From contig JBAZNF010000001.1 in NCBI GenBank assembly GCA_041649335.1, positions 21,285 to 85,284 on the forward strand: 64,000 nt of DNA, given 5' to 3'. A program made the translations under genes and the position numbers. The stretch is from Patescibacteria group bacterium (GTDB taxonomy: Bacteria; Patescibacteriota; Patescibacteriia; UBA10025; JAHIVO01). The first letter of the stretch is position 1. The number at the start of each line of letters is the position of its first letter. Shown here piece by piece: positions 27,242 to 53,615 of the stretch. The notes below the pieces were generated by a model. It was not told the origin of the DNA and ran no database searches. It saw only the letters and a list, made by a program, of their open reading frames with translations.

Positions 27242-27245
27242 ACGG

Positions 27246-28319: not shown

Positions 28320-28323
28320 ATTG

Positions 28324-36812: not shown

Positions 36813-39800
36813 ATGAGGGCGCGTACCAATAAAAATAAATTTTTTTTCGGGGCGTTATTCGGCTTTGTTGTCTTTGGGATATTGCTCGGTGCCGCACTCT
36901 GGCTGACCTCATCCCCGTCATTAGCCGTTACCGTCAACCCTAACTTGGGACCGACATTCGGTTTGGGTACGGCTGACCTGGAGTCCACGGTCATCAAGAT
37001 CATCCAGTGGGCGCTCGGGTTTCTGGGGCTGGTCGCCGTGATCATCATCATGTACGGAGGTTTTATCTGGATGACCGCGGCCGGCAACGAGGAAAAGGTA
37101 CGGAAGGCGAAAAAAATCATCACTCAGGCGGTGATCGGCCTGGTTATTATTATGTTAGCCTGGGCAATCGTGACTTTCATCATCGGCCGGCTGAACGGCA
37201 TCCTGAATGGGCCCGGCCAGCAGTTCTGTACTCCCGGCGCGCCGAACGGCTGTTATGATTGTAATGCAGCAGGTACTGCGTACTCTATTTTTGATCAAAC
37301 TAATGGCCCGCAGTGTGTCAGCGGTGATACGTTCCACAAGAAATGGGTTGACCCGGCGCCAAACGAGGATAATGTGCCGCTTTGCAGTATTGTCCAGGTG
37401 CAGTACAATGGGAATTTTGATGCCGGGAGCATCGCAGGAAATGTCGGTTTATATGTTAATTTGGCGACAAACGGCAATGGTGCCGCGTGTAATGCCGCGG
37501 ACGAATGCCGTTCCGGAGTATGTACGGCAAACGCGTGTGTCGGAGATGAAGTCGTCGGTACGTGGCAAGTGGTGGCGTCCAACCATTCATTTTTGGAATT
37601 TTTGCCAAATACGGATTATCTGGAAAACACCGAATATCGGGCGGAGATACGGGCTGGTGTAGCGGAAGAAGCGCCGGCGCGGACGACTGTGCCGTATACC
37701 TGGACATTCACCACCGGCACGACCACGCTGACGACGCCGCCGACAGTGACGCAGATCTACCCGGACGATAACGACACGGGTATTTGCCTGATGACGCCGG
37801 TTCAGGCGAAATTTTCCCAGAAGATGCGCGTGTCCTCAATAAATTCCGGGACAGTCTTGTTGCAGAGCGGCGCGCCGGTACTCCTCAGTACTTTCTCTTT
37901 CCCGACCGTAGCGTCATTCTCCACGAGACCGCAGGCGCCTCTGGTGCCGGATACGGATCATACTGTTACGATGATTGCCGGCACGCCAGGCGGAACCTGT
38001 TCGGTCGCGGGCCCAGGCTGTGACATAAAAAATAATTGCATTACCACATGCGGCGGTACCTGGACGTACAATACCGACGGTATCATGGACGTCTGTTTTA
38101 ACCACCTGGACGGCAACTACAGCGGCACGGATGACGGTTCGGCCGGCGGCGATGACTTTATGTCCATCAACGGCCAGCCTAATCCTGGTGATACTACGCC
38201 GTGGAGTTTCACTACGGATGCAGATACGACTAATACGAAATGTGTCCCGGAAATAACCAGCATTAACCCCGACAATGGTCAGTACAGTGATCCGGCGCCG
38301 GGCGCAGAAATCAGCGGGACGAATTTTGGCATCATCGGCAACGTTACATTCAATAGTGGAGTGTTGGATCAGCTGAATTGTTTTAACGGAGTAAATTGGC
38401 CGAACCAGAATTGCAATGTGTCATGGACCGGCAATACTATCCAAACCCGTATCCCCGGCGGTCCGATCAATTATGGCGGTATCATCCCGTCCAATGGCGC
38501 CAAGGACGGCGGAATAGTGGTGACTATTACGCCCGGCGTGTGTGAGGGCGGCAGCAATGACAATGGCGCGTGCACCGTGGCTAACCAGGCCGCGGACTGT
38601 CCCGGCGGTAAATGCATCGAAGACAGCAACGCCGTCGGTTTTGACGTAACCAGCCCGCAGATCGGGAAAGTGTCCGGATTGGACAAGGCTCCGCATGGCG
38701 GGATCGGACAGTACGTGACCGTTATCAAACGCAATGACAGCAACGCCGGATTTGGAGCAGTCCAGGGACAGGTATTTTTCCGCAACCGGCTGAATGGTGC
38801 GGAGGTAGTCGCGGAATTTCCGCCGGATCCGCCCTGTGATGCGAACTGGTCAGATACGCGCGTCATCATTAAAGTTCCGGATCTGTCAGCGATCGCTACA
38901 GCCTGCGTCGGAAATTGGGCGGCTTGTGTCAATACTGACTCTGAAGTAGCGGTGCAGGTCGTAAAATCTGACGGTACCCGCAGTAATCTGGCATATTTTA
39001 TATATACGAATGAGGCAGCCGGGCCGGGCCTATGTAAAGTTGATCCTGTTTGTGGGGTTGAGGGTACGGCAGTGGTATTGTCAGGAGAAAAATTTGACGG
39101 ACCGAACCCGCACAGCGTCAGTTTTGCTCTCGGGACCAATCCGCCCGTTACAGTGGCCCCGACCAGCTGGACTGATACAGACGTCGGCGCTGACGTCCCG
39201 AATTTGGACAATGCCGAGGACCCGTATGAGGTGAATGTTTCCAACGGCAACGGTGCCAGCAACAGTCTGCCGTTTGAAGTGCCGTGCGGCGGTGTGCCGA
39301 AAGTGGTGGAGACCACAGCATGCAGCCTGCACTGCGTGGGCGGAATCAACGACACCAAATCGTGTTTAAACGACGAATTTTGCGCGCCGGGCGGCGGATC
39401 ATGTATCCAGGACACGTTCCCGTCCCCGAACCCTTATAAGAACGCGACTAACGTCTGCCTGAACGCCGGATTCGGTGCCACGTTCAGCACCCTGATGGAC
39501 CATGCCACACTGAGTGATATCAACATTAAATTATACGATTGTACCGATAACACCTCCGCCTGCGCGACGACGAACGATATCACCCCGCCGCCGGGAAACT
39601 ATTCTGCTTCGGATACGGCTACGAATACCAGTTTCCAGTTTTTTCCGGTTGCCAACCTCACGTCAGACCATTACTACAAGGCGGTTATCAGCAAGGAAGT
39701 GCGCAGCACAACAAACGTTAAGATGGTGAATGATTACGCCTGGACCGTAAAAACACAGGCTGGTACTGACCTATGTCCGGTGACGGGCGTGCTGGTGACG

Positions 39801-42800
39801 CCGGCCAAGACAATCCTGGCCGCCATCGATCCTGATCCCGGATCAACGCAGGACTACGCTGCCGTACCGCTCGGGCCCAAATGTACGTTTATGAATCCCA
39901 ATGGGTACACATGGGGCTGGGACACGCTGCCGTTGGGTGTAGCCACGGTCGCGTCAGTATTGCCGCAGCCGCCGTATAATTCAACGGCCACGGCCATTGC
40001 CGAGGGCACGACCAAGGTCAGGGCGACTACAGAAGGGAAGACCGGGCAGGGGAGTTTGAGTATTATTTTAGATTATTGTGACGCTTCTACAGACTGCACA
40101 AAAGCCGGGCAGTGTCCGGGCAGTATCTGTGACATACCGACAAACCGCTGTACTCCGGTCATTACCGACCGCAACGGCGACGGCCAGGCTTTGTCTCCGG
40201 CCAGCGGCCCGCGCAGTCCTAATCCCGCCCAACCAGGTACGACTGTGACCATCGAGGGTTGTTATTTTGGTTCGTATGTCGTCGGATCCAGCCAGATTCA
40301 ATTTGCCGGGAATGACAGCATCTTCTTCTGTCCCAAACCATGGACGGACAGCCAGATCATCACGTCGGTTCCTGATACCGCACCGCTAGGCAATAACGCG
40401 GTGATCGTCCGGACCGCGGTTGGTTTGACCTCTCCTGGTGTTAATTTTACCGTGACCAATACATGCGAGGGTGGTGTACCGGTGCCCGCTACCGGTGTGC
40501 CCGGGATATGTTCGATTAGTCCGGCTACCGGCAGAAATTTAAGCCAGACGTCATTTAACGGGTATCAATTTACCAGTAATGGCGCGCCGCCGGTGGCAAA
40601 GGCGCAGTTTACACAGGACGGCGGCGGGTACACTGATTCAACAACAGGTTCCAGTGACGCTGCCGGGACAGTGTTTTCCGGGGCCACAGTGCCTGACAAT
40701 GCCGTCTCCGGACCAGCCCGGATGGCTGTGGAGGTCGCTCCAAACCAGTACTGTCCATCAAACAGCCTGACGTTCGGCGTGACCTGTTCGTCCAGTGACC
40801 AGTGCGGCACTGGCTGCTGCGCATACAGTAATTTAGTCCATGCTAAAATTTGCCAGGAGTTAGAAGCGTGCAGTCCGGGTACGCCGGGCACGACCTGCAA
40901 GCTTGACGATGCCGAGCATATAGCCGCTGATTTGTGCCAGCTCGGCAAGACCGTGTCCGGTACTGGGGATTATCGGTGTATTGATGCGGACAGTCATTTA
41001 ACACCGGATAGCCAGGGTACGCCGCCGGTGGTCAGTGGCCCATACCCACCCGGTGCATCAGCACCGTGTGTTACCTGTTGTTCAATGGATATCAATGGCG
41101 ACGGGAGCAACATACCCCAGACAAATACGGGAGGACTGAATTGTACCGCGGATATCGACGCCTGTTCCGGTGCAGGCAGCAACCGCGGCTTGTATTGCGG
41201 CTGCGCGTATGACGTCAATAACCCGGTACCGGGCGATACCCAGTGCGATGACGGAAGCGGGACGTTGGGTTGCGGCAGCAACACCTGTTGTTATGCCCGG
41301 CCACAGTTTACCGGCGTTACGCCGGCCGTACCGGCTCCGCCAAATGGACTTTTATGCCTGAATAATATTTTTACCTTCACCTTTGACCAGCCGATGGATG
41401 CCAGTTCGGTCATACCCGGGACGTCGGTAGAAATGATTGACAGCACAGCCACAAATATCAATATTACTGTTTTAAAAACGACAAACGGTTTTGTCATCAA
41501 GCCCGCGCAGGCGCTTACGCCAGGGCTATCGTATACAATCAGGCTGCGTCGCGACTTGATCAGGAGCAGCAAGGGTATTGCCTGGTCAGCTACGCCTAAT
41601 GACTGGCAGGCTTGGCAGTGGCCGGTAGATATCAATGCCACGATTTGCACGATAAATTCTATAGAATGGCTTTTTATAAAAAATCCTTTATTTAGCTATC
41701 CAGCTCCTGATTATTTCAATTGTTTTACTGATTCGTGCACTGATGACATGAATATTGGTCTCGTTGGAAATCAACATTGGGCTTTTGCCCAAGCACTTGA
41801 TAAGTACAGCAACCCGGTCAGCGCAAATTACAACTGGTCAATAGGAGACCCGACGATAGCGACGGTGGATCCAGCCCAGCACACTTTTTTTAATGATAAT
41901 TTAACAGCCCAGCAGCAGAATGGTCGGACGTCGGTGAATGTCGAAGCAGTGCCGGACTATTTCACCGGTACCAAGACGTCATCCGCCAGAGTGACGGTCA
42001 ATGCGTGCGAGCATCCCTGGCCGAATCCGTTTCCGCCGGAGAATGACACGTTCCCGTATATTGATAACGCCACCCACTTTTCTATTTCGTATTGCCGAGA
42101 CCCCGGCGAGCTACCGTTATTGGCTCCGACCGGTGACGTAGTGGTCAAGGATGGCACCTATCTGCCGGGGAACAAGAAGAACGAGCGGATCAAGGAATTT
42201 TTCTTCACCCGTAACGGGACGGATGACGCCATCGGTATTTTGGTATATGAGAATGAAGGCAACCAGTCGCCTCGTGACTGGTATTTCAGCCAGTTCGGCC
42301 CAGCCGCACCGGAACCCCAGGACCTGACCGTGGACGGGTATCCGGCTGTCCGGGCCGGTACGACGGTTTACGTGTCCGCCTGGAATGCCGTTGGCGCTAA
42401 CGTCGGTGACCGGCTGTACCCGAATATTTACCTGATTTCATACAATGAAGACGCTTCTGACGAGACGGTGGCTATTTATAACCGGATGATCAGTAACTGG
42501 GAATTTACCATCAACATCGGCCTGTCGGAAAAAGAGCAGATGCTGCGCGATATGCGGCGGGTGACGGACCTCACGGCCATATACGCGAAACTGATGACGT
42601 ACCGGACCGATAAGGGGATTTTTCCAAAACTTGAGGGTGGATCATACGTGAAGATGCTGTCCACCTCCAAATGGCCGTCGTGGCAGGATACGCTCGGTAC
42701 CGCAATAAACGGTAACCTGCCCAAAGATCCGATCGACAAGTTTGCCGTCCCTGACCCGCTGATGTGCACGGCCGCAAACCATTATGACCAGACTACCTGC

Positions 42801-45800
42801 TGGAGCGATACCCAAAAAAGATACGAATGTCCGGCCGACTCATTTGTCTATCAATATATGGGCAGTGCGGACGGCAGTATGGCCAGCCTGTTCGCGCATT
42901 TGGAATACCTCCATTACTTAAATGGCGGGTGGTACATCGGCGCTGATCCGGTGTCGGACGTCTGCAATGGCCTGTCCGAAGCGGAATGCCCGTGTTTCAA
43001 CTATGAATATAATGTCACCGGTTCAGCCACGGATCATGACGGTCCGGACATCATCGCCGTTGATTCGCTGGTGCTGAACCAGAACACGACCGTGTCGGGC
43101 ACGCGGGCGCTGGACGTGACGGTCAGTGACGCAGGATCCGGCGTCAATCGGGTGTTATTCTACATTGACGGCATCCTGAACTACACGGATACGGATAACG
43201 CCGTCTGGAGCTGGGATTTCAACACCAGTCAGTATACGGACGGCAGCCATACGGTCCGTGTCCGGGCCTATGACAATGCCGGTAACCTGACTGACGGGGA
43301 TTATGCTATCAATATCGACAACAGCGGCCAACCGGATTCTACCGCGCCGTTTGTGACCATCACCACGCCGCAAGACGGGACGACAGTATCGAACCGCAAC
43401 GTCACCTACAGTCCCGATAAATGGATTACGGCGGGAGGGGTCGAGGGCATAGAGGCGTCAAATACCGGGTCAATATTCTGGGTGAACTACCCAGTCGGAA
43501 CATCTTCGTTAAACCGGGTTGATGCCGACCTGACCTTGAGTACATTGCTCAATTCGTTTAATTATCCCAACCCTGATTTGACGTTGAATTTAACACCAGG
43601 GAACAGGGTTTTATATTGGGTAGGCAAAGACAGGTCAACCGGTGATATGCTGGTGACATATACCCCCGATCCTAATGTTGACAGACGAAAAATATTGCGC
43701 ATTCCGGCCGGCGCCGCTCCCAATACCCCGCCAACTTCCATCTATTATTTTACCGGTCCTGGCTTCGATTGGCGCGGCTTTACCCATGCGGTCGGGGCGC
43801 CGGACGGTAAAATTATTGCGGTGATATATTTCCATCAGCTCGCTGTGTATAATCCGAGTACGGGCGTAATTGAGCATTTCCTCGACACGGGCGGACAGAT
43901 TGGCGGTATCGATACTGATAGTGCGGGAAATATTTATATTACACGGGCAACCAACCCCGGCGGCGTGTATAAGTATGACCAGAATTTAAATCTAATCGGC
44001 AGTATTACAAATGCCACCTTTAATCTGCCGATCGGATTAGCCGTCGACGGCCAAACTATTTATGTGGCAAATCAGAATTCTCATGACATTGTCGCGGTGG
44101 ACACCAGCCTGACCAAAGTGGTGCACGTGTTCGGCGAAGCCGGCGTACCGGGCAATGATTTGGCGCACTTGAGTTCTCCGCAGGATGTCACGGTATTCGG
44201 CAATAATTTGTATATTTCTGATCTCATGAACGCGCGCATCCTCCGGGTGAAGACGCTGATCAGCTATGGCGTGCAGATCAACGCGCTGGCTACCGATAAC
44301 CGGCAGGTTTCAAGTGTTAATTTTTCCATCAGGGACGTGGGCAATAATTTAGTTGATGCGTACTCCTGTACCGGCAATACGACCACGACGCTTAGCTGTT
44401 CTTTTGCCCCGCCGTGGGATTCTACCCAGGTACCGAACGGTCCGTATACTATTACTGCCCTGGCGGCGGATAACAGCGGGCATACCGGATCGACGTCCGT
44501 AACCGTCAATGTTGATAATCTGGATCCGATCCGGCCGGTGGTCACATTTGACCAGTCCATACCCGGTCTCTGCGCCGAGGGAACATGCCAAAACAGCGGA
44601 GTCCCGTGTGATTATCTTAATCAGTGCGGCGGCGGGGAATTGTGCGTGTTCAGCGTGGCCTGCGACCAGACGAATACACCCGCTGTCTGCAGCAATAATT
44701 TTAATAACCAGATGTGCTTGCGAAGCGGTTCAGTTACTATACCGGTCTCGGCTACCGACAATAAACAGGTCAACGAGGTGAAATTTTATGTAGACGGGCT
44801 GTTCATGAGCAATGGCATCCATCAGCCGGGGACGTGTGTTACGGGCGGACAGGCATGTACGTCAGATGCTGATTGTACCGCCCCAGATACGTGTGATTTG
44901 GATAATTGGAGCTGGAATTGGGACTCCCAAGGTTACTCAAAAGGCGTGTGCGCCAGCCATTGCAGCGTTACGCTCGGCCAGATGTGCGTCGCCAGCAGCG
45001 ATTGCCCGGCCAATGAGGTGTGCGTCGCGGCCAATGGAATCGGATTGGAGTGCAATGCTGACAGTGAATGCAATCCCGGCCTGACCTGCCCCGGCCACCA
45101 GGTGGTAGCGTATGCTTATGATGATGCCAGGAATATCGGCACGGACACGATGTTCATCCCGGTCGACGTGGCGCAGGACGACGCAGAACCGCCGACGGTC
45201 AGTTTTATCCCGCCGACGCCCAATGAAGGGACGTCCATTGATAACTCTATTTTAGTGCGCGTACAGGCTGATGATAATTATGGCGTCAATCGGGTGAATT
45301 TCTATATGGACCATGTACTGCGGTACACTGCTCTGGCCGGGCAGGCGACAGAATGGACCGTTGATACGACGTCGGTTCCCGACGGATGGCATTCGTTCCA
45401 GGTGGACGCACTGGACGCCCGCGGCAATCGCAGCACAAGTATCGAACGGAATTATAACGTCCGCGGACCCGGCGGCCCCTTGATTACCGATCCGTTTATT
45501 ACGCCGGACACCGGCCCACTGGGAACTGTGTATACCATATATGCCAACGTGACGGATTATGACGGCGTTGACAGCGTCGTCGTGCCAATCCAAAGCCCCG
45601 ACGAAACGGATTTGGCTCCTCCGGTGCTTATCACGCTGGGGTTAGTCTCTGGCGATAATATTTCCGGGTTATACAGCGGTACCTGGACGTCAACTGTGGT
45701 AGCGGCATTGTGGGTGGACGTGCAGGCTCGCGACATACTTGGTAACACCTCGGAATACGAGAATATCCCCGGCCGGCCGGCCTGCGACAACAACGGGACC

Positions 45801-46316
45801 TGCGACAGTCCGGTGGAAACCAACGCGAATTGTCCGCTTGACTGTCCGGCCACGTACCCGGTGATTACTAGCGTTTTGTCTGCCTCGGGCCAGGTCGGTA
45901 TCGCGTTTAGCTACCAGATTATTGCCACGAACGGTCCAAACACGTTTACCGCGACAAATTTGCCAAACGGGCTTACGGTCAATGCGGCCGGGCTGATCAG
46001 CGGTACGCCGGCCGTCGGATCAAATGCCACCTATACGGTTCCGCTGACTGCCACTAATGCATTTGGCACAGATACAAAAAACCTGACCCTGGTCATCCAG
46101 GGACCATGTGTGGCGCACAGCGCCGGCCCATGTACAGGCGCCCTGACCGGCAATGACAACTGTTGCCTCTCAAGTGATTTCTGTAATCATAACGGGACAA
46201 AGACATATACCGCTGACGATACCTGTAGTAGTAAAAAAATTCCGGGGTCGCCTTGCGATTATTGGTTTTGGTGCATTTCAGATGAATGCAGTTTCTTGAC
46301 AAAACGATGTTTATAA
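36813..46316 (+). CDS. Giant (3167 aa) Cys-rich surface protein with an N-terminal VirB2/TrbC-like (T4SS-pilin-like) membrane domain
   Basis: A single uninterrupted ORF. The N-terminal ~130 aa contain two hydrophobic helices flanking ...IIMYGGFIWMTAAGNEEKVRKAKKIITQAVIG.... The rest is extracellular: dense Cys pairs, NHL-type beta-propeller repeats (about nt 43860-44250), three Ig-like Big-type domains (about nt 44260-45440; ATDN(R/K)QV...V.F blocks) and a He_PIG-type putative Ig domain (about nt 45850-46090; LPNGLTVNAAGLISGTPAVGSNATYTV). Confidence 0.9.
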   Translation: MRARTNKNKFFFGALFGFVVFGILLGAALWLTSSPSLAVTVNPNLGPTFGLGTADLESTVIKIIQWALGFLGLVAVIIIMYGGFIWMTAAGNEEKVRKAKKIITQAVIGLVIIMLAWAIVTFIIGRLNGILNGPGQQFCTPGAPNGCYDCNAAGTAYSIFDQTNGPQCVSGDTFHKKWVDPAPNEDNVPLCSIVQVQYNGNFDAGSIAGNVGLYVNLATNGNGAACNAADECRSGVCTANACVGDEVVGTWQVVASNHSFLEFLPNTDYLENTEYRAEIRAGVAEEAPARTTVPYTWTFTTGTTTLTTPPTVTQIYPDDNDTGICLMTPVQAKFSQKMRVSSINSGTVLLQSGAPVLLSTFSFPTVASFSTRPQAPLVPDTDHTVTMIAGTPGGTCSVAGPGCDIKNNCITTCGGTWTYNTDGIMDVCFNHLDGNYSGTDDGSAGGDDFMSINGQPNPGDTTPWSFTTDADTTNTKCVPEITSINPDNGQYSDPAPGAEISGTNFGIIGNVTFNSGVLDQLNCFNGVNWPNQNCNVSWTGNTIQTRIPGGPINYGGIIPSNGAKDGGIVVTITPGVCEGGSNDNGACTVANQAADCPGGKCIEDSNAVGFDVTSPQIGKVSGLDKAPHGGIGQYVTVIKRNDSNAGFGAVQGQVFFRNRLNGAEVVAEFPPDPPCDANWSDTRVIIKVPDLSAIATACVGNWAACVNTDSEVAVQVVKSDGTRSNLAYFIYTNEAAGPGLCKVDPVCGVEGTAVVLSGEKFDGPNPHSVSFALGTNPPVTVAPTSWTDTDVGADVPNLDNAEDPYEVNVSNGNGASNSLPFEVPCGGVPKVVETTACSLHCVGGINDTKSCLNDEFCAPGGGSCIQDTFPSPNPYKNATNVCLNAGFGATFSTLMDHATLSDINIKLYDCTDNTSACATTNDITPPPGNYSASDTATNTSFQFFPVANLTSDHYYKAVISKEVRSTTNVKMVNDYAWTVKTQAGTDLCPVTGVLVTPAKTILAAIDPDPGSTQDYAAVPLGPKCTFMNPNGYTWGWDTLPLGVATVASVLPQPPYNSTATAIAEGTTKVRATTEGKTGQGSLSIILDYCDASTDCTKAGQCPGSICDIPTNRCTPVITDRNGDGQALSPASGPRSPNPAQPGTTVTIEGCYFGSYVVGSSQIQFAGNDSIFFCPKPWTDSQIITSVPDTAPLGNNAVIVRTAVGLTSPGVNFTVTNTCEGGVPVPATGVPGICSISPATGRNLSQTSFNGYQFTSNGAPPVAKAQFTQDGGGYTDSTTGSSDAAGTVFSGATVPDNAVSGPARMAVEVAPNQYCPSNSLTFGVTCSSSDQCGTGCCAYSNLVHAKICQELEACSPGTPGTTCKLDDAEHIAADLCQLGKTVSGTGDYRCIDADSHLTPDSQGTPPVVSGPYPPGASAPCVTCCSMDINGDGSNIPQTNTGGLNCTADIDACSGAGSNRGLYCGCAYDVNNPVPGDTQCDDGSGTLGCGSNTCCYARPQFTGVTPAVPAPPNGLLCLNNIFTFTFDQPMDASSVIPGTSVEMIDSTATNINITVLKTTNGFVIKPAQALTPGLSYTIRLRRDLIRSSKGIAWSATPNDWQAWQWPVDINATICTINSIEWLFIKNPLFSYPAPDYFNCFTDSCTDDMNIGLVGNQHWAFAQALDKYSNPVSANYNWSIGDPTIATVDPAQHTFFNDNLTAQQQNGRTSVNVEAVPDYFTGTKTSSARVTVNACEHPWPNPFPPENDTFPYIDNATHFSISYCRDPGELPLLAPTGDVVVKDGTYLPGNKKNERIKEFFFTRNGTDDAIGILVYENEGNQSPRDWYFSQFGPAAPEPQDLTVDGYPAVRAGTTVYVSAWNAVGANVGDRLYPNIYLISYNEDASDETVAIYNRMISNWEFTINIGLSEKEQMLRDMRRVTDLTAIYAKLMTYRTDKGIFPKLEGGSYVKMLSTSKWPSWQDTLGTAINGNLPKDPIDKFAVPDPLMCTAANHYDQTTCWSDTQKRYECPADSFVYQYMGSADGSMASLFAHLEYLHYLNGGWYIGADPVSDVCNGLSEAECPCFNYEYNVTGSATDHDGPDIIAVDSLVLNQNTTVSGTRALDVTVSDAGSGVNRVLFYIDGILNYTDTDNAVWSWDFNTSQYTDGSHTVRVRAYDNAGNLTDGDYAINIDNSGQPDSTAPFVTITTPQDGTTVSNRNVTYSPDKWITAGGVEGIEASNTGSIFWVNYPVGTSSLNRVDADLTLSTLLNSFNYPNPDLTLNLTPGNRVLYWVGKDRSTGDMLVTYTPDPNVDRRKILRIPAGAAPNTPPTSIYYFTGPGFDWRGFTHAVGAPDGKIIAVIYFHQLAVYNPSTGVIEHFLDTGGQIGGIDTDSAGNIYITRATNPGGVYKYDQNLNLIGSITNATFNLPIGLAVDGQTIYVANQNSHDIVAVDTSLTKVVHVFGEAGVPGNDLAHLSSPQDVTVFGNNLYISDLMNARILRVKTLISYGVQINALATDNRQVSSVNFSIRDVGNNLVDAYSCTGNTTTTLSCSFAPPWDSTQVPNGPYTITALAADNSGHTGSTSVTVNVDNLDPIRPVVTFDQSIPGLCAEGTCQNSGVPCDYLNQCGGGELCVFSVACDQTNTPAVCSNNFNNQMCLRSGSVTIPVSATDNKQVNEVKFYVDGLFMSNGIHQPGTCVTGGQACTSDADCTAPDTCDLDNWSWNWDSQGYSKGVCASHCSVTLGQMCVASSDCPANEVCVAANGIGLECNADSECNPGLTCPGHQVVAYAYDDARNIGTDTMFIPVDVAQDDAEPPTVSFIPPTPNEGTSIDNSILVRVQADDNYGVNRVNFYMDHVLRYTALAGQATEWTVDTTSVPDGWHSFQVDALDARGNRSTSIERNYNVRGPGGPLITDPFITPDTGPLGTVYTIYANVTDYDGVDSVVVPIQSPDETDLAPPVLITLGLVSGDNISGLYSGTWTSTVVAALWVDVQARDILGNTSEYENIPGRPACDNNGTCDSPVETNANCPLDCPATYPVITSVLSASGQVGIAFSYQIIATNGPNTFTATNLPNGLTVNAAGLISGTPAVGSNATYTVPLTATNAFGTDTKNLTLVIQGPCVAHSAGPCTGALTGNDNCCLSSDFCNHNGTKTYTADDTCSSKKIPGSPCDYWFWCISDECSFLTKRCL

Positions 46317-46356: not shown

Positions 46357-47649
46357 ATGAAAAAATTAATGAATGGGTTGGTTATCTTAACAATAGTTGG
46401 CGTCATGTCGGTTGTGGGCATCAGCATAGCCCGGGCTGATACGCAGCCAAGCATCGAGGTGTATGACCCGAGTGATACTGCCGGACCGACATTATCGAGC
46501 ACTGTCGTCAGTCCGACCCAGATCAATCAGGGGCAGTCGCTCAGTATTACCGTAACAGCTGAGGACGTTTCCGGCGTCAGGACGGCTATCGCCAATATCA
46601 AGAGTTCGGTCGGTGCCGTGAAGGCGATTATTCAGCTGTATGACGACGGCAAACATAATGACGGCCAGTCTGGCGATGGCGTGTTTGCCAGTACGTGGAA
46701 TTCAGGCACGAATCAGGATGACAATTATTCAGTGGACATCCAGCTGGCAGACATCTTTGGCCATCCGACCATTGGGTCAAACGCCGCAAGCTTCGTGATT
46801 GGCGCCGGCGCCTCGAATTCCAATACCAACACGACTAATGCAAATACCAACACTTCGGACACCACCGCTCCGGTTATTGCTATCACGTCGCCAAATGAAG
46901 GCGCTGACATCGGTACGTCAAGTATTGATGTGTACGCCAACGCCACAGATCCGGAAAGTACGGTGACAAAAGTTGATTTTTATCTGGACAGCGAGTCGGC
47001 ACCGCACGATACGCAGAATTTTGATCAGCCGTCAGGTAGCGGCGATTACATCTGGGTACTGAATGTCGCATCGCTATCCACAGGATCTCATGTATTGCGG
47101 GCAGTCGCGACCAATGGCGTCGGCCTGACTGCTTCCGCGACGCGGACGATTAACGTTACGTATACCAGCAGCGCCCCGGTGGTGACTATCATCAGCCCGT
47201 TATCTGGTTCGTTTAATGTCGGGACGCCAATTGACGTGAATGTCAGTGCCACCGATGCCACTGACATCACTCGGATTGAGCTGTATACCTCAAAATATGG
47301 CGGCCCGCTGGCAAGTGTTGATATTACTGGTTCGGCGGATACTAATGTTACCACGACTTTGCACATCAATTTGGCGGGCGATATTGCCATGGGAACAGCG
47401 CAGAAATCTGACCTGGCGGTCAAGTGGCCACGATTCCGTTTGCCGTTCGTTTCAGTGGCTGATGCCGCCACCAGTTATAATGTCAATGGTAGTTGTACCA
47501 CGACCACGATCACGGACGACAAGTCAATTTATGCCATGGCGTATAATGCCAGCCTAAGCGCGAATTCCGGTTATGTGACCTATTCCGTCTGGTCTTCCTC
47601 GACATCCTGCACGAACACGGCATCGTCGTCTTCCTCCTCCGCCTCTTAA
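46357..47649 (+). CDS. Secreted Ig-like-domain protein with Ser-rich C-terminus
   Basis: Signal peptide MKKLMNGLVILTIVGVMSVVGISIARA, Big-type Ig-like repeats, and a 40-nt gap after the giant gene. Confidence 0.7.
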   Translation: MKKLMNGLVILTIVGVMSVVGISIARADTQPSIEVYDPSDTAGPTLSSTVVSPTQINQGQSLSITVTAEDVSGVRTAIANIKSSVGAVKAIIQLYDDGKHNDGQSGDGVFASTWNSGTNQDDNYSVDIQLADIFGHPTIGSNAASFVIGAGASNSNTNTTNANTNTSDTTAPVIAITSPNEGADIGTSSIDVYANATDPESTVTKVDFYLDSESAPHDTQNFDQPSGSGDYIWVLNVASLSTGSHVLRAVATNGVGLTASATRTINVTYTSSAPVVTIISPLSGSFNVGTPIDVNVSATDATDITRIELYTSKYGGPLASVDITGSADTNVTTTLHINLAGDIAMGTAQKSDLAVKWPRFRLPFVSVADAATSYNVNGSCTTTTITDDKSIYAMAYNASLSANSGYVTYSVWSSSTSCTNTASSSSSSAS

Positions 47650-47661
47650 TAACGGTATTTC

Positions 47662-48297
47662 ATGCCAAATATCAAACAAAACAACGTAGAGGATATTTTT
47701 GAAGGAACCGATGCAGCCGCGGGTAAAAAGATTGCCAAAAATAGTTCTTCCCGCCGCAGCAAAGACGTACCGCGGGCCATGCCCGCACCTCTCCGACCAA
47801 TAGCTGTCACCCCGCCAGCGCCCTCGTCTGTACCGTCAGGGGAACCGAACAACCGCCGGTTCGTGGTCGCCGCCGTTTCATTGGCAGTCGTCCTGGTAGC
47901 GGCCGGCGCTTTGGCCGCCTGGCGCGGAGGCTTGTTTACCCGGACCACGACGACGGATACGACAGAAAACCATAACGCAGTGCAGGCCGTCGTGACTGAT
48001 ACCGACGGTTCAGCTGTAAACTTGAAACCAATCGACAACACAGTTGTCGACACCGACGGCGACGGCCTGGCAGATGCGGAAGAAAAAACGCAGGGGACCG
48101 ATCCGCTGAAATCCGACACTGACGGCGACGGGCTGTTTGACCGCGAAGAGGCAAAAGTGTTCAAGACCGATCCTCTGAAAAGAGATACAGACAGTGACGG
48201 GATTGATGACGGGACGGAAGTCAGGAATGGATATAATCCCGCCGGTTCCGGAAAATTGTATGATCTCACCAATGCGATCACTAATTCATCCCAATAA
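47662..48297 (+). CDS. Membrane-anchored protein with thrombospondin-type-3-like Ca-binding repeats (DTDGDGLxDxEE x3)
   Basis: One TM (FVVAAVSLAVVLVAAGALAAW) followed by TSP3-like aspartate repeats. Confidence 0.7.
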   Translation: MPNIKQNNVEDIFEGTDAAAGKKIAKNSSSRRSKDVPRAMPAPLRPIAVTPPAPSSVPSGEPNNRRFVVAAVSLAVVLVAAGALAAWRGGLFTRTTTTDTTENHNAVQAVVTDTDGSAVNLKPIDNTVVDTDGDGLADAEEKTQGTDPLKSDTDGDGLFDREEAKVFKTDPLKRDTDSDGIDDGTEVRNGYNPAGSGKLYDLTNAITNSSQ

Positions 48298-48309
48298 TTT
48301 ATTGTATCT

Positions 48310-49425
48310 ATGCCAATCAGCCCGCCACCGCCCCCTAACACAAATGAAGATTTACACAAGCCGATCAAGGTGTACACCATGCCGGAGAAGTTCCATGTCG
48401 ATGACCACGGTTCTTCAGGCGGCGGATCAAAACTGATGATCTGGCTTATTGTCATTTTAGCGGTGGTCTTGCTCGGCGTGGCCGGCTTCCTGGCCTATAA
48501 GAAGTTCATGCCATCGACCAATACGACTGAGAATACGAATGAAATAAATGCCAATGTGGCTGTGAACGAGAATATGAACGGAAATGCGAACAAGAATACG
48601 AATTCAGCGGTTAATACAAATTTGAATATCAACGTTAATTCCTCAATTAATACGAACACCGCAGGGAATCAGAACATCTTCCCGAATTTTAACGTCAATA
48701 ACACGAATACGGCATTCAATGCAAATATTACCCCAGTCGTCTCGAGCCAGGACAGCGACAGTGACGGGCTGACTGACGTTGAGGAGACACTGTTTAGCGC
48801 CAACCCGATAAAGGCTGATACGGACGGGGACAGCTATGCCGATGGCCAGGAAGTGGTCGGCGGATATAATCCGACCGGGACGGGATCTATCGAAAGCAGC
48901 AGTGCCCTACGGACATACTATGATCCTTCATATTTCTATTCAATCCTGTATCCGGCCAGCTGGGCGTCATCAGATGACCCCCAAAATACGCGAGGCAAGA
49001 TGTTCACAACCAGTGGAGAATTTGTCGAAGCCAGCGTGCAGGAGAATCCCGCCAACCTGTCTGCACGTGACTGGTATCTGACCCAATCTCCCGGTGTCAA
49101 TTCTTCCCAGATTTCCAGCATCACCAATTGGGACAAGACCTTGTCAGGCGTATTGAGCGTGGACGGTCTAACCGCGTATTTTGTCAGCGGGCAGAAAGTG
49201 TACATCATTAATTATAACCTCAACATATTGACCCAGGCGAATTACAAGTCAACTTTTCAGATGATGTACCGGAGTTTTAAGGTGGGCGTAGTGCCGGTCA
49301 CTACCAATACGAATGCAAATGTCAACGTAAATACGAATACGGTAAATAAAAATTCAAACTCCAATACCAACACCAATACCGCAAACACAAATAGTAATTT
49401 AAATTCCGCAACTAATCGCCTCTGA
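48310..49425 (+). CDS. Membrane-anchored Asn-rich protein with TSP3-like repeats and a C-terminal globular domain (paralog of 47662)
   Basis: TM (LMIWLIVILAVVLLGVAGFLAY), N/T-rich low complexity, the repeats DSDSDGLTDVEE and DTDGDSYADGQE. Its stop overlaps the ybeY ATG by 1 nt. Confidence 0.7.
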   Translation: MPISPPPPPNTNEDLHKPIKVYTMPEKFHVDDHGSSGGGSKLMIWLIVILAVVLLGVAGFLAYKKFMPSTNTTENTNEINANVAVNENMNGNANKNTNSAVNTNLNINVNSSINTNTAGNQNIFPNFNVNNTNTAFNANITPVVSSQDSDSDGLTDVEETLFSANPIKADTDGDSYADGQEVVGGYNPTGTGSIESSSALRTYYDPSYFYSILYPASWASSDDPQNTRGKMFTTSGEFVEASVQENPANLSARDWYLTQSPGVNSSQISSITNWDKTLSGVLSVDGLTAYFVSGQKVYIINYNLNILTQANYKSTFQMMYRSFKVGVVPVTTNTNANVNVNTNTVNKNSNSNTNTNTANTNSNLNSATNRL

Positions 49426-49871
49426 TGTGGGTATCGGTTAACCAGGTCGTCCCGGTCGGCGTTCGTGTCCAGACTGTCAAGCGCGTGCTGGCAGCGGCTG
49501 CCCGAGTCATGCCTCGGTATGCGTATTCTGAAATTTCTGTCGCTTTCGTCACTGACGCAGTCAGTCGTCGCCTCAACCGCCAGTACCGTCGGATTGACCA
49601 TCCGACCGACGTCCTGTCTTTTTCCGAGCGTGATAGCCGTATACGGATGAGCCGGCAGCCGGGGTATCTCGGTGAAATAATCATCGCTATGCCCCATACT
49701 GCGCGGCAGGCCAGACGCCTTGGGCACACGTTGCGTCATGAAATCACCATATTATTAATCCATGGTTTTTTGCACTTGGTCGGATACGACCATTCGCGGC
49801 GCGCCGACGCACAGCGGATGATCAGGCTGGAACAGCGCATCTTCCGGCAGATTCAGAGTCCTGAACACTAA
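49425..49871 (+). CDS. ybeY: rRNA maturation endoribonuclease YbeY
   Basis: Zinc motif HGFLHLVGYDH. Confidence 0.9.
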   Translation: MWVSVNQVVPVGVRVQTVKRVLAAAARVMPRYAYSEISVAFVTDAVSRRLNRQYRRIDHPTDVLSFSERDSRIRMSRQPGYLGEIIIAMPHTARQARRLGHTLRHEITILLIHGFLHLVGYDHSRRADAQRMIRLEQRIFRQIQSPEH

Positions 49872-49888
49872 TACTGGTCAAGATATTT

Positions 49889-50257
49889 ATGCCACTTATT
49901 GATTTTGCCAAGCTGGTAAAGAGTTTCCGGTATGCTGGCCGGGGATTTTGGTATACCATAAAAAATGAACAGAATATCCGATTGCATCTGCTGATCAGCC
50001 TGGTGGTCATTATCCTTATGGTATATTTCGAAGTTGCGCTCTGGCAGGTCGTCACACTGCTCATGGTCATGATGTTTGTCCTGGTTCTGGAGTTGATTAA
50101 TACCATTTTTGAAAAAGTGTCAGATATCCTCAGGCCGCGGATACATATGTATGTGGAGGTTATAAAGGATGTCATGGCCGCCGCGGTGCTGGTGGCGTCA
50201 ATCGGGGCGGTTGTGATTGGTATTCTTATTTTTATCCCGTATTTTGTTTCTGGTTAG
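49889..50257 (+). CDS. dgkA: Diacylglycerol/undecaprenol kinase family (DgkA)
   Basis: Three-TM DgkA fold with conserved E...N...E residues. Confidence 0.8.
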   Translation: MPLIDFAKLVKSFRYAGRGFWYTIKNEQNIRLHLLISLVVIILMVYFEVALWQVVTLLMVMMFVLVLELINTIFEKVSDILRPRIHMYVEVIKDVMAAAVLVASIGAVVIGILIFIPYFVSG

Positions 50258-50417
50258 AGCGCTAAGATAAGCCAAATAATTCTTTTATTACCAGTCCAAG
50301 CCGCCTATTTTGCAAATTACCATTAAATACTTTATAATAGGAGTAATATAAGGCGTGTTTGTTCGGAGCTACCAGGACGATAAACACGGCACCAAGCGTA
50401 AGTTCGAAAATAACATT

Positions 50418-51671
50418 ATGGCAAAAGAAGAAATCATTACCGGTCTTGATATCGGCTCAACTACTATTCGGATAGTGGTTGGTCAACTGAATCCGCATGA
50501 TAATAAAATTCATGTTTTAGGTGCCGCTGAACATCCGGCAGAGGGAGTCAGTAAAGGTACGATTACTAGCATTGAAGATGCCGTTTCTTCGATTTCGGCC
50601 ACGTTAGAGAAGGTGGAGCGCATGACGGGCATTCCGGTCGAGCATGTATATGTAGGCATCAATGGGAGCCACATCACCGCCCAGGAAAGCCATGGGGTGA
50701 TAGCGGTTTCGAAATCAGACGGAGAAATCCGCGAGGAGGACATTGAACGCGTTATTGAAGCCGCGCAGGCAGTGGCGACCCCTCCGAATTATGAAATTCT
50801 GCATGTGATACCGCGCAGCTTTACTGTTGACAACCAGAAAGGCATCAAGGATCCGGTCGGCATGACTGGCATCAGACTAGAGGTTGATGCTCAGATTATC
50901 CAGGGGTTGTCATCGCAGGTAAAAAATATCACCAAATGCATTTATCGGACCGGTATTGACATCAATGACCTCGTGCTTGGCGTTTTGGCATCAGCAGAGT
51001 CCGTCTTAACGAAAAAACAGCGCGACCTGGGCGTTGCCCTTTTGAATATCGGCGGGTCGACAACTAGCCTGTTGGTGTTTGAAGAGGGGGATGTTCTGCA
51101 TACGGCGATCCTGCCGGTCGGTTCGAGCCATATCACAAACGATATCGCCATCGGGTTACGGACGTCCATTGATTTGGCTGAGAAGATAAAAATAGAATAC
51201 GGATCGGCGCTGCCCGAAGAGATCAACAAGCGCGAAGAGATTAATCTGGCAGAAATTGATACACGTGAAGAAGGCGTCGTGTCACGGAGGCATGTGGCAG
51301 AGATCATCGAAGCACGAAGTGAGGAGATTTTTAAAATGGCTGACAAGGAATTACAGAAGATCGATCGAGCCGGTTTGCTTCCAGCAGGCGTCGTCATTAC
51401 CGGCGGTGGCGCAAAACTCGAAGGGCTGATCGATGTGGCCAAGCGAGAATTCAAGTTGCCTGCTTCACTCGGCTTCCCGCTTGATTTGGCGTCGACAGCC
51501 GTGGACAAGGTCAATGACGTGAATTACTCAACCGCTGTCGGGCTGCTGTACTGGGGCGCTGGTTTGTCGGAAAAGTCAGGCGCCGGCCGGTCATTCAAAA
51601 TGCCGAATTTTTCTTCCGCAAAAGAGGTTACCTCAAAAATGAAGCAATGGTTTAAATCGCTGATACCATAA
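50418..51671 (+). CDS. ftsA: Cell division protein FtsA
   Basis: Actin-like motifs (GLDIGSTTIRIVVG). An alternative GTG start at 50355 is possible. Confidence 0.9.
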   Translation: MAKEEIITGLDIGSTTIRIVVGQLNPHDNKIHVLGAAEHPAEGVSKGTITSIEDAVSSISATLEKVERMTGIPVEHVYVGINGSHITAQESHGVIAVSKSDGEIREEDIERVIEAAQAVATPPNYEILHVIPRSFTVDNQKGIKDPVGMTGIRLEVDAQIIQGLSSQVKNITKCIYRTGIDINDLVLGVLASAESVLTKKQRDLGVALLNIGGSTTSLLVFEEGDVLHTAILPVGSSHITNDIAIGLRTSIDLAEKIKIEYGSALPEEINKREEINLAEIDTREEGVVSRRHVAEIIEARSEEIFKMADKELQKIDRAGLLPAGVVITGGGAKLEGLIDVAKREFKLPASLGFPLDLASTAVDKVNDVNYSTAVGLLYWGAGLSEKSGAGRSFKMPNFSSAKEVTSKMKQWFKSLIP

Positions 51672-52893: not shown

Positions 52894-53041
52894 GCGGCGG
52901 ATCGTATTTACCCTGAGAAATTGCCAGTTAATAACCAAAATCGTCAGCTGTGGCCTGCTTTGTGCTGCTAATTGTTTGCTGTCGGCAGATTCCGATACCA
53001 TTTGTCCGGCAGTCCCGGTAGCAGTGGAAAATTTTTATCAG

Positions 53042-53050
53042 TTATCCACA
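53042..53050 (+). promoter_or_regulatory. Perfect DnaA-box 9-mer (TTATCCACA) upstream of the nrdR-nrdJ promoter
   Basis: Exact match to the consensus. A second exact copy lies at 62920-62928, and both are followed by G(T/C)G. Confidence 0.35.
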
Positions 53051-53080
53051 GTGAATTTGATTTTTTGCTAATGTATGTTA

Positions 53081-53109
53081 TTGACCGTTACTATATATAG
53101 TAGTATAAT
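53081..53109 (+). promoter_or_regulatory. nrdR-nrdJ promoter (TTGACC-17-TATAAT) with an NrdR box in the spacer
   Basis: The spacer contains TTACTATATATAGTAG. Its core, ACTATATATAGT, is a perfect palindrome matching the NrdR-box consensus acaCtAtATaTaGtgt. Confidence 0.6.
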
Positions 53110-53138
53110 GATTAGTAGACGTACTAGATGTTGATATT

Positions 53139-53615
53139 ATGAAATGCCCGGCTTGCCATCATACGGACACGAAGGTCAGTGATTCCCGCTTAGTTTATGA
53201 CGGGATGGCCATCCGCCGCCGCCGCCAGTGCTTGAAATGCAATTTTCGGTTTTCCACATATGAAGAGGTCGAAATACTCAATGTAACTGTTATTAAACGG
53301 GACGGCCGGCGTGAACCGTACTCAAAGGACAAGCTGGAGTCGGGGCTGAAAAAATCATTTGAAAAAAGGCCGATCACCCAGGACGAGTTTAAGCGGCTGG
53401 TGAGCCTAGTCGAGCGTGACATCCAGATGCTCGGCCATGAAGAGATAAAAACCAGCCAGATTGGCGAGATCGTGATGAAGCACCTGAAAAAAAGAGACGA
53501 GGTCGCTTACATCCGTTTTGCATCGGTCTATCGGTCATTCAGGGATGCCAAAACATTCCAACATGAGCTCCGCAAGCTGCTGACGCCCCGGAGCATGAAA
53601 AAAAATAAACATTAA
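53139..53615 (+). CDS. nrdR: Transcriptional repressor NrdR (Zn ribbon + ATP cone)
   Basis: MKCPACHHTDTKVSDSR...CLKC. Confidence 0.95.
   Translation: MKCPACHHTDTKVSDSRLVYDGMAIRRRRQCLKCNFRFSTYEEVEILNVTVIKRDGRREPYSKDKLESGLKKSFEKRPITQDEFKRLVSLVERDIQMLGHEEIKTSQIGEIVMKHLKKRDEVAYIRFASVYRSFRDAKTFQHELRKLLTPRSMKKNKH

What the first reader, a model, noticed from the sequence alone, without database searches (positions are those of the whole stretch)
46357..49425. Accessory surface-protein trio downstream of the giant gene: one Ig-like secreted protein and two paralogous TSP3-repeat, Asn-rich membrane proteins
Three tightly packed genes follow the giant gene. They encode a signal-peptide Ig-like protein with a Ser-rich tail, and two single-TM proteins carrying thrombospondin-type-3-like Ca-binding repeats (DTDGDGLADAEE, DTDGDGLFDREE, DTDSDGIDDGTE, DSDSDGLTDVEE, DTDGDSYADGQE). 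The second of these also has long Asn/Thr-rich tracts and a C-terminal globular domain of unknown fold. The last stop codon overlaps the ybeY start (TGATG), indicating translational coupling into a housekeeping operon. These could be Ca-dependent matrix or partner proteins for the giant adhesin.
Basis: partly seen in the sequence, partly recalled or inferred. Interest (0 to 1): 0.55.

Follow-up and report, generated by a model that had tools for sequence, protein, structure and literature searches.

The report
Conserved Patescibacteria envelope protein pair
The three genes are real: one is a lineage-specific secreted Ig-domain protein, and the other two are a membrane-anchored, calcium-repeat protein pair (one with a PsbP-like head) that sits in dozens of Patescibacteria species between a giant surface-protein gene and the ybeY–ftsA–ftsZ genes; their function is unknown.

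Summary
Three packed + strand genes are present: gA 46357-47649, gB 47662-48297 and gC 48310-49425. The gC stop overlaps the ybeY start (TGATG).

- **gA** has a signal peptide and three Ig-like domains (Pfam Big_7). It occurs only in close relatives, in a variable slot.
- **gB and gC** belong to two large Patescibacteria families that Pfam and NCBIfam do not model. Each has a conserved cytoplasmic N-terminal peptide (gB "EDIF", gC "h-x-T-M-P-x-K-F"), one transmembrane helix and a low-complexity stalk. gB then carries 3 TSP3 repeats and gC carries 2.
- **The "unknown fold" in gC** is PsbP/Mog1-like (AF2 pLDDT 83; Foldseek E 2e-6). This domain matches 1525 protein clusters.

Across 61 related loci:
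- gB to gC is adjacent in 55 loci, median gap 14 nt.
- gC to ybeY is adjacent in 54 of 61, median gap 0.
- A homolog of the giant lies upstream in 43 of 46 assessable loci.
- The giant–gB–gC link survives where the ybeY link is broken.
- As a control, ftsZ to nrdR is kept in 37 of 47, so synteny alone is weak evidence.

Best reading: gB and gC are calcium-stiffened envelope tethers working with the giant surface protein. A link to FtsA and cell division is the main rival. Function is inferred, not shown. This is a new variant of known domain kinds, of moderate interest.

The parts
36813..46316 (+). Context: giant 3167-aa surface protein with an N-terminal VirB2-like T4SS_pilin membrane anchor, followed by Big_5, Big_7 and He_PIG Ig-like domains
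   Evidence: Pfam T4SS_pilin E 1e-12, Big_5 E 5e-26, Big_7 E 4e-24. Homologs lie upstream of gB-gC in 43 of 46 assessable loci.
46357..47649 (+). gA: secreted protein with three Ig-like domains (430 aa) and a Ser-rich C-terminus; a lineage-specific occupant of a variable slot
   Evidence: Big_7 E 5e-16 and choice_anch_X 28.3 bits. The AF2 model has three all-beta domains, and Foldseek returns tandem Ig hits. The database search returned only four close homologs plus one weak hit. Other loci carry unrelated small transmembrane proteins, or nothing, in this slot.
46357..46437 (+). Predicted Sec signal peptide of gA (residues 1-27, cleavage after ARA)
   Evidence: Read from the sequence; AF2 places a helix at residues 2-20. 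No signal-peptide predictor was available.
47662..48297 (+). gB: bitopic membrane protein (211 aa) with a cytoplasmic motif, one transmembrane helix, a Thr-rich stalk, three TSP3 repeats and a GYNPxGxGKLYDL end
   Evidence: TSP3_bac 60.9 bits. Relatives sit directly upstream of gC in 55 loci.
47686..47712 (+). Conserved cytoplasmic motif of gB, VEDIFEGTD (residues 9-17)
   Evidence: [DE][IM]F occurs before the transmembrane helix in 50 of 55 family members. In the window it is found only in gB.
47860..47922 (+). gB transmembrane helix (residues 67-87)
   Evidence: Hydrophobic run. Family mean K+R is 2.7 before the helix and 1.6 after.
48049..48219 (+). Three gB TSP3 repeats, starting at residues 130, 152 and 175
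   Evidence: Three DxDxD motifs are present in 47 of 55 family members.
48310..49425 (+). gC: bitopic membrane protein (371 aa) with a cytoplasmic motif, one transmembrane helix, an Asn-rich stalk, two TSP3 repeats, a PsbP-like domain and an Asn/Thr tail
48370..48393 (+). Conserved cytoplasmic motif of gC, VYTMPEKF (residues 21-28)
   Evidence: h-x-x-[MI]-P-x-x-[FY] occurs before the transmembrane helix in 45 of 56 family members by a strict pattern and in 49 of 56 by a looser [MILV]-P-x-x-[FYL] pattern. It is also seen in global family representatives.
48433..48498 (+). gC transmembrane helix (residues 42-63)
   Evidence: Hydrophobic run. Family mean K+R is 3.7 before the helix and 1.4 after, which indicates N-in topology.
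48505..48750 (+). gC Asn/Thr-rich low-complexity stalk (residues 66-147)
   Evidence: 28 N and 11 T in 82 residues. The stalk varies in length (21-240 aa) and composition across relatives.
48751..48879 (+). Two gC TSP3-like repeats (residues 148 and 170) plus the YNPxGxG turn
   Evidence: In the family alignment the Asp and Glu positions of the repeats are invariant. TSP3_bac hits 18 of 30 members. This sequence alone scores below the Pfam cut-off.
48898..49299 (+). gC C-terminal domain with a PsbP/Mog1-like fold (residues ~197-330)
   Evidence: AF2 pLDDT 83.4, pTM 0.79. Foldseek best hit is PsbP 2xb3, E 2e-6, probability 1.0, TM 0.64. Pfam PsbP hits 11 of 30 members and PsbP_2 hits 9 of 30. 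The domain profile finds 1525 clusters.
49315..49422 (+). gC Asn/Thr-rich C-terminal tail (residues 336-371), present only in close relatives
49423..49427 (+). TGATG: the gC stop overlaps the ybeY start by one base
   Evidence: In relatives the gC to ybeY gap has a median of 0 nt, and 25 of 54 overlap.
49425..49871 (+). Context: ybeY, followed by dgkA (49889-50257), ftsA (50355-51671) and ftsZ (51691-52893)
   Evidence: Pfam and NCBIfam; tblastn synteny.

Best explanation
The region encodes three extracytoplasmic envelope proteins of a Patescibacterium.

gA is a Sec-secreted string of three Ig-like domains. It sits in a variable slot after the giant gene.

gB and gC are a conserved pair of N-in/C-out bitopic membrane proteins. 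Each has a short conserved cytoplasmic peptide, one transmembrane helix, a flexible low-complexity stalk and a fixed number of TSP3 repeats. gC ends in a PsbP/Mog1-like domain, a fold that generally serves as a protein-binding module.

Inferred mechanism: gB and gC act as calcium-stiffened stalked tethers in the cell envelope. They would couple a cytoplasmic partner, through the N-terminal peptides, to an extracellular partner. The best candidate for that partner is the VirB2-anchored giant surface protein encoded just upstream in almost every genome that has the pair. The genes are probably transcribed with, and translationally coupled to, ybeY.

Shown here: the domain architecture, the fold, the size of the families and the conserved gene order. 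Inferred: calcium binding, topology, the binding partners and co-transcription.
For: - Architecture: TSP3_bac in gB and the family-level TSP3 signal in gC.
- Fold: the PsbP-like assignment for gC.
- Topology: K+R bias before the transmembrane helix.
- Cytoplasmic motifs: conserved across relatives whose ectodomain match is only 26-43% identical to gC.
- Repeat numbers: fixed at 3 in gB and 2 in gC.
- Family size: the gC domain profile finds 1525 clusters at 50% identity, 900 of them at E<=1e-10. All loci with a match to essentially the whole query (L008-L058, L085, L086) are Patescibacteria-type MAGs.
- Gene order: gB to gC adjacency in 55 loci, median gap 14 nt. A homolog of the giant is upstream in 43 of 46 assessable loci.
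- Five loci that lost the ybeY link (L029, L044, L046, L047, L055) still keep giant, small transmembrane protein, gB and gC.
- The arrangement was hand-checked in a distant Falkowbacteria genome.
- No terminator-like site falls in the intergenic gaps from the giant to dgkA.
Against: - There is no direct evidence of any interaction, of calcium binding or of co-transcription.
- Gene order in the whole block is conserved, including pairs with no obvious functional relation (ftsZ to nrdR in 37 of 47). Linkage to the giant could therefore be inherited order.
- Stalk lengths of gB and gC do not co-vary (rho 0.02).
- The cytoplasmic motifs imply a cytoplasmic partner, which the almost wholly extracellular giant does not obviously provide.
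- One locus (L014) has a VirD4-like gene instead of the giant upstream.
- gC itself scores below the Pfam cut-offs for both TSP3_bac and PsbP.
Confidence: 0.42

Rival explanations
1. gB and gC are adaptors for cell division or wall synthesis. Their conserved N-terminal cytoplasmic peptides would dock on the actin-like FtsA encoded two genes downstream, as the cytoplasmic tails of bitopic FtsN and PilN dock in the IA-IC cleft of FtsA and PilM. The stalk, TSP3 repeats and PsbP-like head would reach wall enzymes or the wall itself.
For: - The layout matches FtsN and PilN: a short conserved cytoplasmic peptide, a transmembrane helix, a linker and an extracytoplasmic globular domain (PMC7613929 read).
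- In relatives the order gB-gC-ybeY-dgkA-ftsA-ftsZ is kept, with ybeY adjacent to gC in 54 of 61 loci.
- Other Patescibacteria proteins join a transmembrane helix and TSP3 repeats to L,D-transpeptidase or OmpA-type wall domains.
Against: - No sequence similarity to FtsN was found (NCBIfam 11.8 bits against a cut-off of 525), and Pfam reported no SPOR domain.
- ybeY and dgkA lie between the pair and ftsA.
- Five loci keep the giant link but lose the ybeY/ftsA link.
- A promoter-like site precedes ftsA (50309-50338).
- Synteny of unrelated genes in this block is about as strong.
- No complex prediction could be run.
Confidence: 0.17
2. gB and gC are general wall-associated envelope proteins with no specific tie to either the giant or the division genes. 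Their position would reflect only the strongly conserved gene order of these reduced genomes.
For: - The control pair ftsZ to nrdR is kept in 37 of 47 loci.
- TSP3 modules are common in many unrelated Patescibacteria envelope proteins.
- gB and gC stalk lengths do not co-vary.
Against: - Very tight packing: median gaps of 14 and 0 nt, with frequent start/stop overlap.
- The giant-gB-gC link persists across rearrangements.
- The conserved cytoplasmic motifs argue for a specific partner.
Confidence: 0.25
3. gC is a transmembrane sensor. The PsbP-like ectodomain would bind a ligand or host-surface cue, and the cytoplasmic peptide would relay the signal. gB would be a co-receptor.
For: The layout (ectodomain, transmembrane helix, conserved cytoplasmic peptide) is compatible with this.
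Against: - No signalling domain is present.
- The conserved cytoplasmic part is only about 8 residues.
- No regulator gene is conserved in the cluster.
Confidence: 0.08

Closest known systems
Bacterial TSP3-repeat envelope proteins (Pfam TSP3_bac PF18884; for example OmpA-family proteins with TSP3 repeats, and Myxococcus CglD and MtsD)
   Same: Both share acidic DxDxDG-type repeats of about 22 residues in extracytoplasmic proteins. gB passes the Pfam cut-off. gB and gC give partial local matches to CglD and MtsD over the repeat region.
   Different: gB and gC are small bitopic proteins of a monoderm-type lineage. They have a fixed 3 or 2 repeats, a cytoplasmic motif and no OmpA, VWA or lipoprotein parts. 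Their scores are far below the CglD and MtsD equivalog cut-offs (40.8 against 400; 23.8 against 800).
PsbP/Mog1 superfamily (PsbP, CyanoP, Mog1p, Tsi3, mycobacterial Apa and MTC28)
   Same: The gC C-terminal domain has the same predicted fold (Foldseek E 2e-6 to 5e-3, TM about 0.6). Family members give weak Pfam PsbP and PsbP_2 hits. Like most members of the superfamily, the domain is extracytoplasmic.
   Different: Sequence identity is only 12-18%. There is no photosystem context. The domain is fused behind TSP3 repeats on a membrane stalk. gC itself is below the Pfam PsbP cut-off (17.6 bits against 23.5).
FtsN and PilN (bitopic partners of the actin-like proteins FtsA and PilM)
   Same: The overall layout matches: a short conserved N-terminal cytoplasmic peptide, a transmembrane helix, a linker and an extracytoplasmic domain, encoded near an actin-like gene.
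   Different: There is no sequence homology, no SPOR domain and no PilN ferredoxin-like domain. The motifs differ (EDIF, TMPEKF). Binding to FtsA was not tested.
Big_7 / bacterial Ig-like surface proteins
   Same: gA has two Big_7 matches and a third Ig-like domain. Its Big_7 unit is 31% identical to one in the giant.
   Different: gA is a short stand-alone secreted protein with no recognised anchor motif and a restricted distribution.

Membership tests
TSP3_bac (PF18884) | Match to the Pfam profile at or above the gathering score (25 bits) | tested here: met
   gB scores 60.9 bits, E 1e-16, with two stretches.
TSP3_bac (PF18884) | The same test applied to gC | tested here: inconclusive
   Whole gC gives no hit. 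The isolated segment scores 14.5 bits, E 0.034. However, 18 of 30 family members hit at E<=0.01 (best E 1e-11), the Asp and Glu positions of the repeats are invariant in the family alignment, and gC aligns to the gB repeats.
TSP3_bac (PF18884) | Calcium binding by the acidic repeats | not testable with these tools
   This needs ITC or a structure of the ectodomain.
PsbP/Mog1 superfamily | Alpha-beta-alpha sandwich fold with a central antiparallel sheet | tested here: met
   AF2 pLDDT 83.4. The top 15 Foldseek PDB hits are PsbP-family proteins (PsbP, CyanoP, and one chain of an NDH-PSI complex) at probability 1.0 and TMq 0.56-0.65; Mog1p, Tsi3, Apa and MTC28 follow.
PsbP (PF01789) as a sequence family | Pfam gathering score (23.5 bits) | tested here: not met
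   gC scores 17.6 bits over 25 residues only. 11 of 30 relatives hit at E<=0.01. gC shares the fold but is not filed as PsbP proper.
Big_7 Ig domain (PF17957) | Pfam gathering score (24.1 bits) | tested here: met
   gA scores 59.5 bits with two stretches. PDB 9kvu, a bacterial Ig domain, matches at E 3e-7.
Choice-of-anchor X domain (NF041940) | NCBIfam cut-off (25 bits) | tested here: met
   gA residues 92-115 score 28.3 bits but cover only 24 of 37 profile positions. This is a marginal match.
FtsN | Match to the FtsN equivalog, or a C-terminal SPOR domain | tested here: not met
   gB scores 11.8 bits against a cut-off of 525. Pfam reported no SPOR domain in gB or gC.
CglD / MtsD (Myxococcus TSP3 adhesion proteins) | Equivalog score (400 for CglD, 800 for MtsD) | tested here: not met
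   gB scores 40.8 and 23.8 bits; gC scores 19.3 bits. The matches cover the repeat region only.
Type IV secretion apparatus components | Co-location with VirB4, VirB6 or VirD4 genes | tested here: not met
   A VirD4-like gene was found in 1 of 87 loci and not in the window. Only the N-terminus of the giant is VirB2-like.

The most novel reading that the evidence does not exclude
gB and gC are Patescibacteria-specific stand-ins for missing divisome or envelope-organising parts. Their conserved N-terminal peptides (EDIF, TMPEKF) would dock on FtsA or FtsZ, as FtsN and PilN dock on FtsA and PilM. Their calcium-stiffened stalks and the PsbP-like head would hold the VirB2-anchored giant surface protein. 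This would physically couple placement of the clade's main surface structure to cell division.
Probability: 0.12. Interest if true: 0.75.

Novelty: new variant of a known kind. Interest (0 to 1): 0.45.

Why it matters
Patescibacteria are a large share of bacterial diversity, yet their envelope and host-contact machinery is almost unknown.

This work defines two large families that Pfam and NCBIfam do not model. NCBI names gB and gC "hypothetical protein". The families have a clear modular build and short conserved cytoplasmic motifs. They are fixed between a VirB2-anchored giant surface protein and the ybeY-dgkA-ftsA-ftsZ genes in more than 50 related loci from species-representative genomes.

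That gives testable candidates for how these tiny cells anchor or organise their largest surface protein, or how they connect the envelope to division. It also resolves an "unknown fold" as PsbP-like.

The domains themselves are known kinds and no function is shown, so the advance is descriptive.

Tried and rejected
1. Sequence search of gC against PDB chains found nothing. A profile search gave only weak Bap and PsbP hits.
2. The promoter and terminator scan was at chance level and gave no operon boundary. Rfam found nothing.
3. Stalk lengths of gB and gC were tested for correlation as a sign of a shared complex. None was found (rho 0.02).
4. A link to the T4SS apparatus was tested. A VirD4-like gene occurs only in L014.
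5. Antisense ORFs (47646-48455, 47088-47471, 49257-49739) have no family hit and are not conserved, so they were rejected as genes.
6. I looked for a PilN next to the window's PilM to compare motifs. None was found.
7. The conserved core of the giant (residues ~1650-2040) has no Pfam, NCBIfam or PDB sequence match.
8. Literature searches for TSP3 or PsbP in Patescibacteria, pilin-fused giants and CPR divisome partners found no description of these families.
9. gA as a recent fragment of the giant: only a weak Big_7-level similarity was found (31%, E 9e-6). This is not enough to claim.
10. A fused FtsA-peptide structure prediction was considered but not run.
Full report
**1. The observation**

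The window carries three close-packed + strand ORFs:
- gA, 46357-47649, 430 aa
- gB, 47662-48297, 211 aa
- gC, 48310-49425, 371 aa

They lie after a 3167-aa gene (36813-46316). The gaps are 40, 12 and 12 nt. The gC stop TGA overlaps the ybeY ATG by one base, giving TGATG at 49423-49427. Downstream are ybeY (Pfam E 2e-34), dgkA, ftsA and ftsZ. Upstream are yqeY and the giant.

The sequences are identical to NCBI proteins MFA5051493-5 of a "Patescibacteria group bacterium" MAG on a 200,811-bp contig. NCBI names gA "Ig-like domain-containing protein" and names gB and gC "hypothetical protein". Antisense ORFs across the region have no family hit and are not conserved in relatives.

**2. gA**

gA starts with a hydrophobic helix ending in ARA|D. 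It has two Pfam Big_7 matches (E 5e-16) and a marginal NCBIfam choice-of-anchor-X match.

An AF2 model built on five sequences is only moderate overall (pLDDT 61.9). It still shows three all-beta domains, at residues 45-148, 173-267, and 275-338 plus 380-418. Foldseek returns generic tandem-Ig proteins.

The database search returned only four close homologs (41-70% identity) plus one weak hit. A weaker partial match occurs in L023 (39% identity over a short segment). In other related genomes, the space between the giant and gB holds unrelated single-transmembrane proteins of 100-280 aa, or nothing. gA is therefore a lineage-specific occupant of a variable slot. Its Big_7 unit resembles one in the giant (31%, E 9e-6).

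**3. gB**

gB passes Pfam TSP3_bac (60.9 bits against a cut-off of 25).

Relatives taken from 55 loci share one build:
- an N-terminal cytoplasmic motif centred on [DE][IM]F, present in 50 of 55 (VEDIFEGTD in the window)
- one transmembrane helix
- a variable stalk
- three DxDxD repeats, in 47 of 55
- an end of the form GYNPxGxGKL[YFL][DE][LIV]

**4. gC**

A word-indexed search with the C-terminal half found only three full relatives. A full HMMER scan with a four-sequence profile of the C-terminal domain found 1525 clusters at 50% identity, 900 of them at E<=1e-10.

Representatives share one build:
- a cytoplasmic motif h-x-(T/V)-M-P-x-(K/E)-F, present in 45 to 49 of 56 (VYTMPEKF in the window)
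- one transmembrane helix, with K+R of 3.7 before and 1.4 after, which indicates N-in topology
- a stalk of 21-240 residues that may be Asn/Thr-, Pro- or Gln/Glu/Lys-rich
- two TSP3 repeats, in 56 of 62
- a domain of about 135 residues

AF2 models that domain at pLDDT 83.4 and pTM 0.79. Foldseek places it with PsbP and CyanoP (E 2e-6, probability 1.0, TM 0.64), followed by Mog1p, Tsi3 and mycobacterial Apa and MTC28.

At family level, 18 of 30 members hit Pfam TSP3_bac, 11 of 30 hit PsbP and 9 of 30 hit PsbP_2. The window sequence alone is below both cut-offs.

gB and gC align over the transmembrane and TSP3 part (31% identity, E 3e-14). They are paralogous in that module only.

**5. Gene order in relatives**

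A scan of species-representative genomes with the family profile gave 80 loci. About 53 of these match essentially the whole query. All of those are Patescibacteria MAGs: Komeili-, Kerfeld-, Falkow-, Uhr-, Magasanik- and Buchananbacteria, plus unclassified bins. Several carry placeholder titles such as "uncultured Gammaproteobacteria". From my own knowledge, GTDB groups these candidate phyla as class ABY1.

I ran tblastn and ORF tracing over 61 loci, which include two near-duplicate pairs. The results were:

| Linkage | Count | Detail |
|---|---|---|
| gB directly before gC | 55 loci | median gap 14 nt; 44 of 55 at 50 nt or less |
| ybeY directly after gC | 54 of 61 | median gap 0; 42 of 54 within -14 to +15 nt; 25 of 54 overlap |
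| Homolog of the window giant upstream | 43 of 46 loci with at least 2.5 kb of upstream DNA | T4SS_pilin N-terminus found in 13 loci (it lies beyond the 10-kb flank in many others) |

The giant's conserved cores lie at residues ~600-1100 and ~1650-2040.

Five loci without the ybeY link (L029, L044, L046, L047, L055) still keep the giant, a small transmembrane protein, gB and gC. In L029 a reverse-transcriptase gene follows gC. One locus (L014) has a VirD4-like coupling protein instead of the giant. That gene occurs nowhere else in the set.

I checked the layout by eye in a low-GC Falkowbacteria genome (L036).

As a control, the functionally unrelated pair ftsZ to nrdR is adjacent in 37 of 47 loci. 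Conserved order in this block is therefore not strong evidence of a shared function on its own.

**6. How it most likely works**

Shown here: the domain build, the fold, the family sizes, the motif conservation and the gene order.

Inferred:
- Calcium binding, from established knowledge of TSP3 repeats.
- An outside location for the repeats and the PsbP-like head, from the positive-inside bias and the nature of these domains.
- A protein-binding role for the PsbP/Mog1 fold.
- A specific cytoplasmic partner, implied by the conserved 8-9-residue N-terminal peptides.

My best reading (confidence about 0.4) is that gB and gC are stalked, calcium-stiffened tethers tied to the giant VirB2-anchored surface protein. 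That linkage is the one that survives rearrangement.

The main rivals are:
- An FtsN/PilN-like role, docking on FtsA (layout analogy, PMC7613929). This was not tested, and the giant link outlasts the ftsA link.
- A generic envelope role, with inherited gene order.

Stalk lengths of the two proteins do not co-vary. Promoter and terminator scans are uninformative, though no terminator-like site falls in the gaps from the giant to dgkA, and promoter-like sites precede ftsA and nrdR.

**7. Comparison with what is known, and novelty**

TSP3 repeats, PsbP-like domains and Big_7 domains are known kinds. Membership tests gave these results:
- gB is a TSP3_bac member.
- gC is inconclusive for TSP3_bac on its own sequence, but the family is positive.
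- gC has the PsbP/Mog1 fold but does not meet the Pfam PsbP sequence cut-off.
- Neither protein is FtsN, CglD or MtsD, because their scores are far below the cut-offs.

No Pfam or NCBIfam model covers the full architecture. Literature searches found no description of these families or of the cluster.

I rate this as a new variant of known kinds, of moderate interest. Its "accessory trio of the giant adhesin" reading is only partly supported.

Noticed in passing
window 49257-49739 (- strand) against ybeY at 49425-49871 (+); also L004 12946-13422: Public gene calls from ENA and Logan omit ybeY here and instead call a 158-160-aa antisense ORF. The + strand ORF is a clear YbeY (Pfam E 2e-34). The antisense ORF has no family hit.
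   Followed up: yes
window ~38610-40110 and ~41760-42932 (giant residues ~600-1100 and ~1650-2040): These two stretches of the giant protein are the parts conserved across distant relatives, together with the T4SS_pilin N-terminus. The second stretch has no Pfam, NCBIfam or PDB sequence match.
   Followed up: partly
window 51691-53615; loci L008-L086: nrdR directly follows ftsZ in 37 of 47 related loci. The whole block from yqeY through the giant, gB, gC, ybeY, dgkA, ftsA and ftsZ to nrdR is a conserved syntenic unit in this clade.
   Followed up: yes
L014 2717-4513: In this one relative, a 598-aa VirD4/TrwB-like coupling protein with a treble-clef zinc finger sits upstream of gB, where the giant gene normally lies.
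   Followed up: partly
L029 10788-11999: A gene with a reverse-transcriptase domain (RVT_1), possibly from a mobile retroelement, follows gC where ybeY is expected. This suggests a mobile-element insertion or rearrangement broke the link to ybeY.
   Followed up: no
loci L008, L010, L016, L018, L020, L021 and others: Many MAG records titled "uncultured Gammaproteobacteria bacterium" (binchicken or SRP co-assemblies) carry the same Patescibacteria-type gene order. Their FtsA and FtsZ are 50-74% identical to the window's. The titles look like placeholder or wrong taxonomy.
   Followed up: no
proteins P0158 and P0174 (C-terminal ends); P0052, P0055 and P0095 (stalk inserts): Some gC-family members carry extra modules. 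These include tandem repeats of about 48 aa after the PsbP-like domain (DGTLIKYPDxPGVYLIxxGKKRAFxSGE...), a second PsbP-like-looking domain, or an inserted beta domain in the stalk.
   Followed up: no
window 26180-28373 (- strand): A PilM-type actin-like protein (E 5e-40) and a T2SSE/PilT-like ATPase lie about 10 kb upstream. No PilN-like ORF is adjacent to pilM.
   Followed up: partly
window 50309-50338 and 53081-53109: The best sigma-70-like matches in the region (10-11 of 12 positions) fall just before ftsA and nrdR. None falls between the giant and dgkA. The overall count of such sites is at chance level.
   Followed up: no
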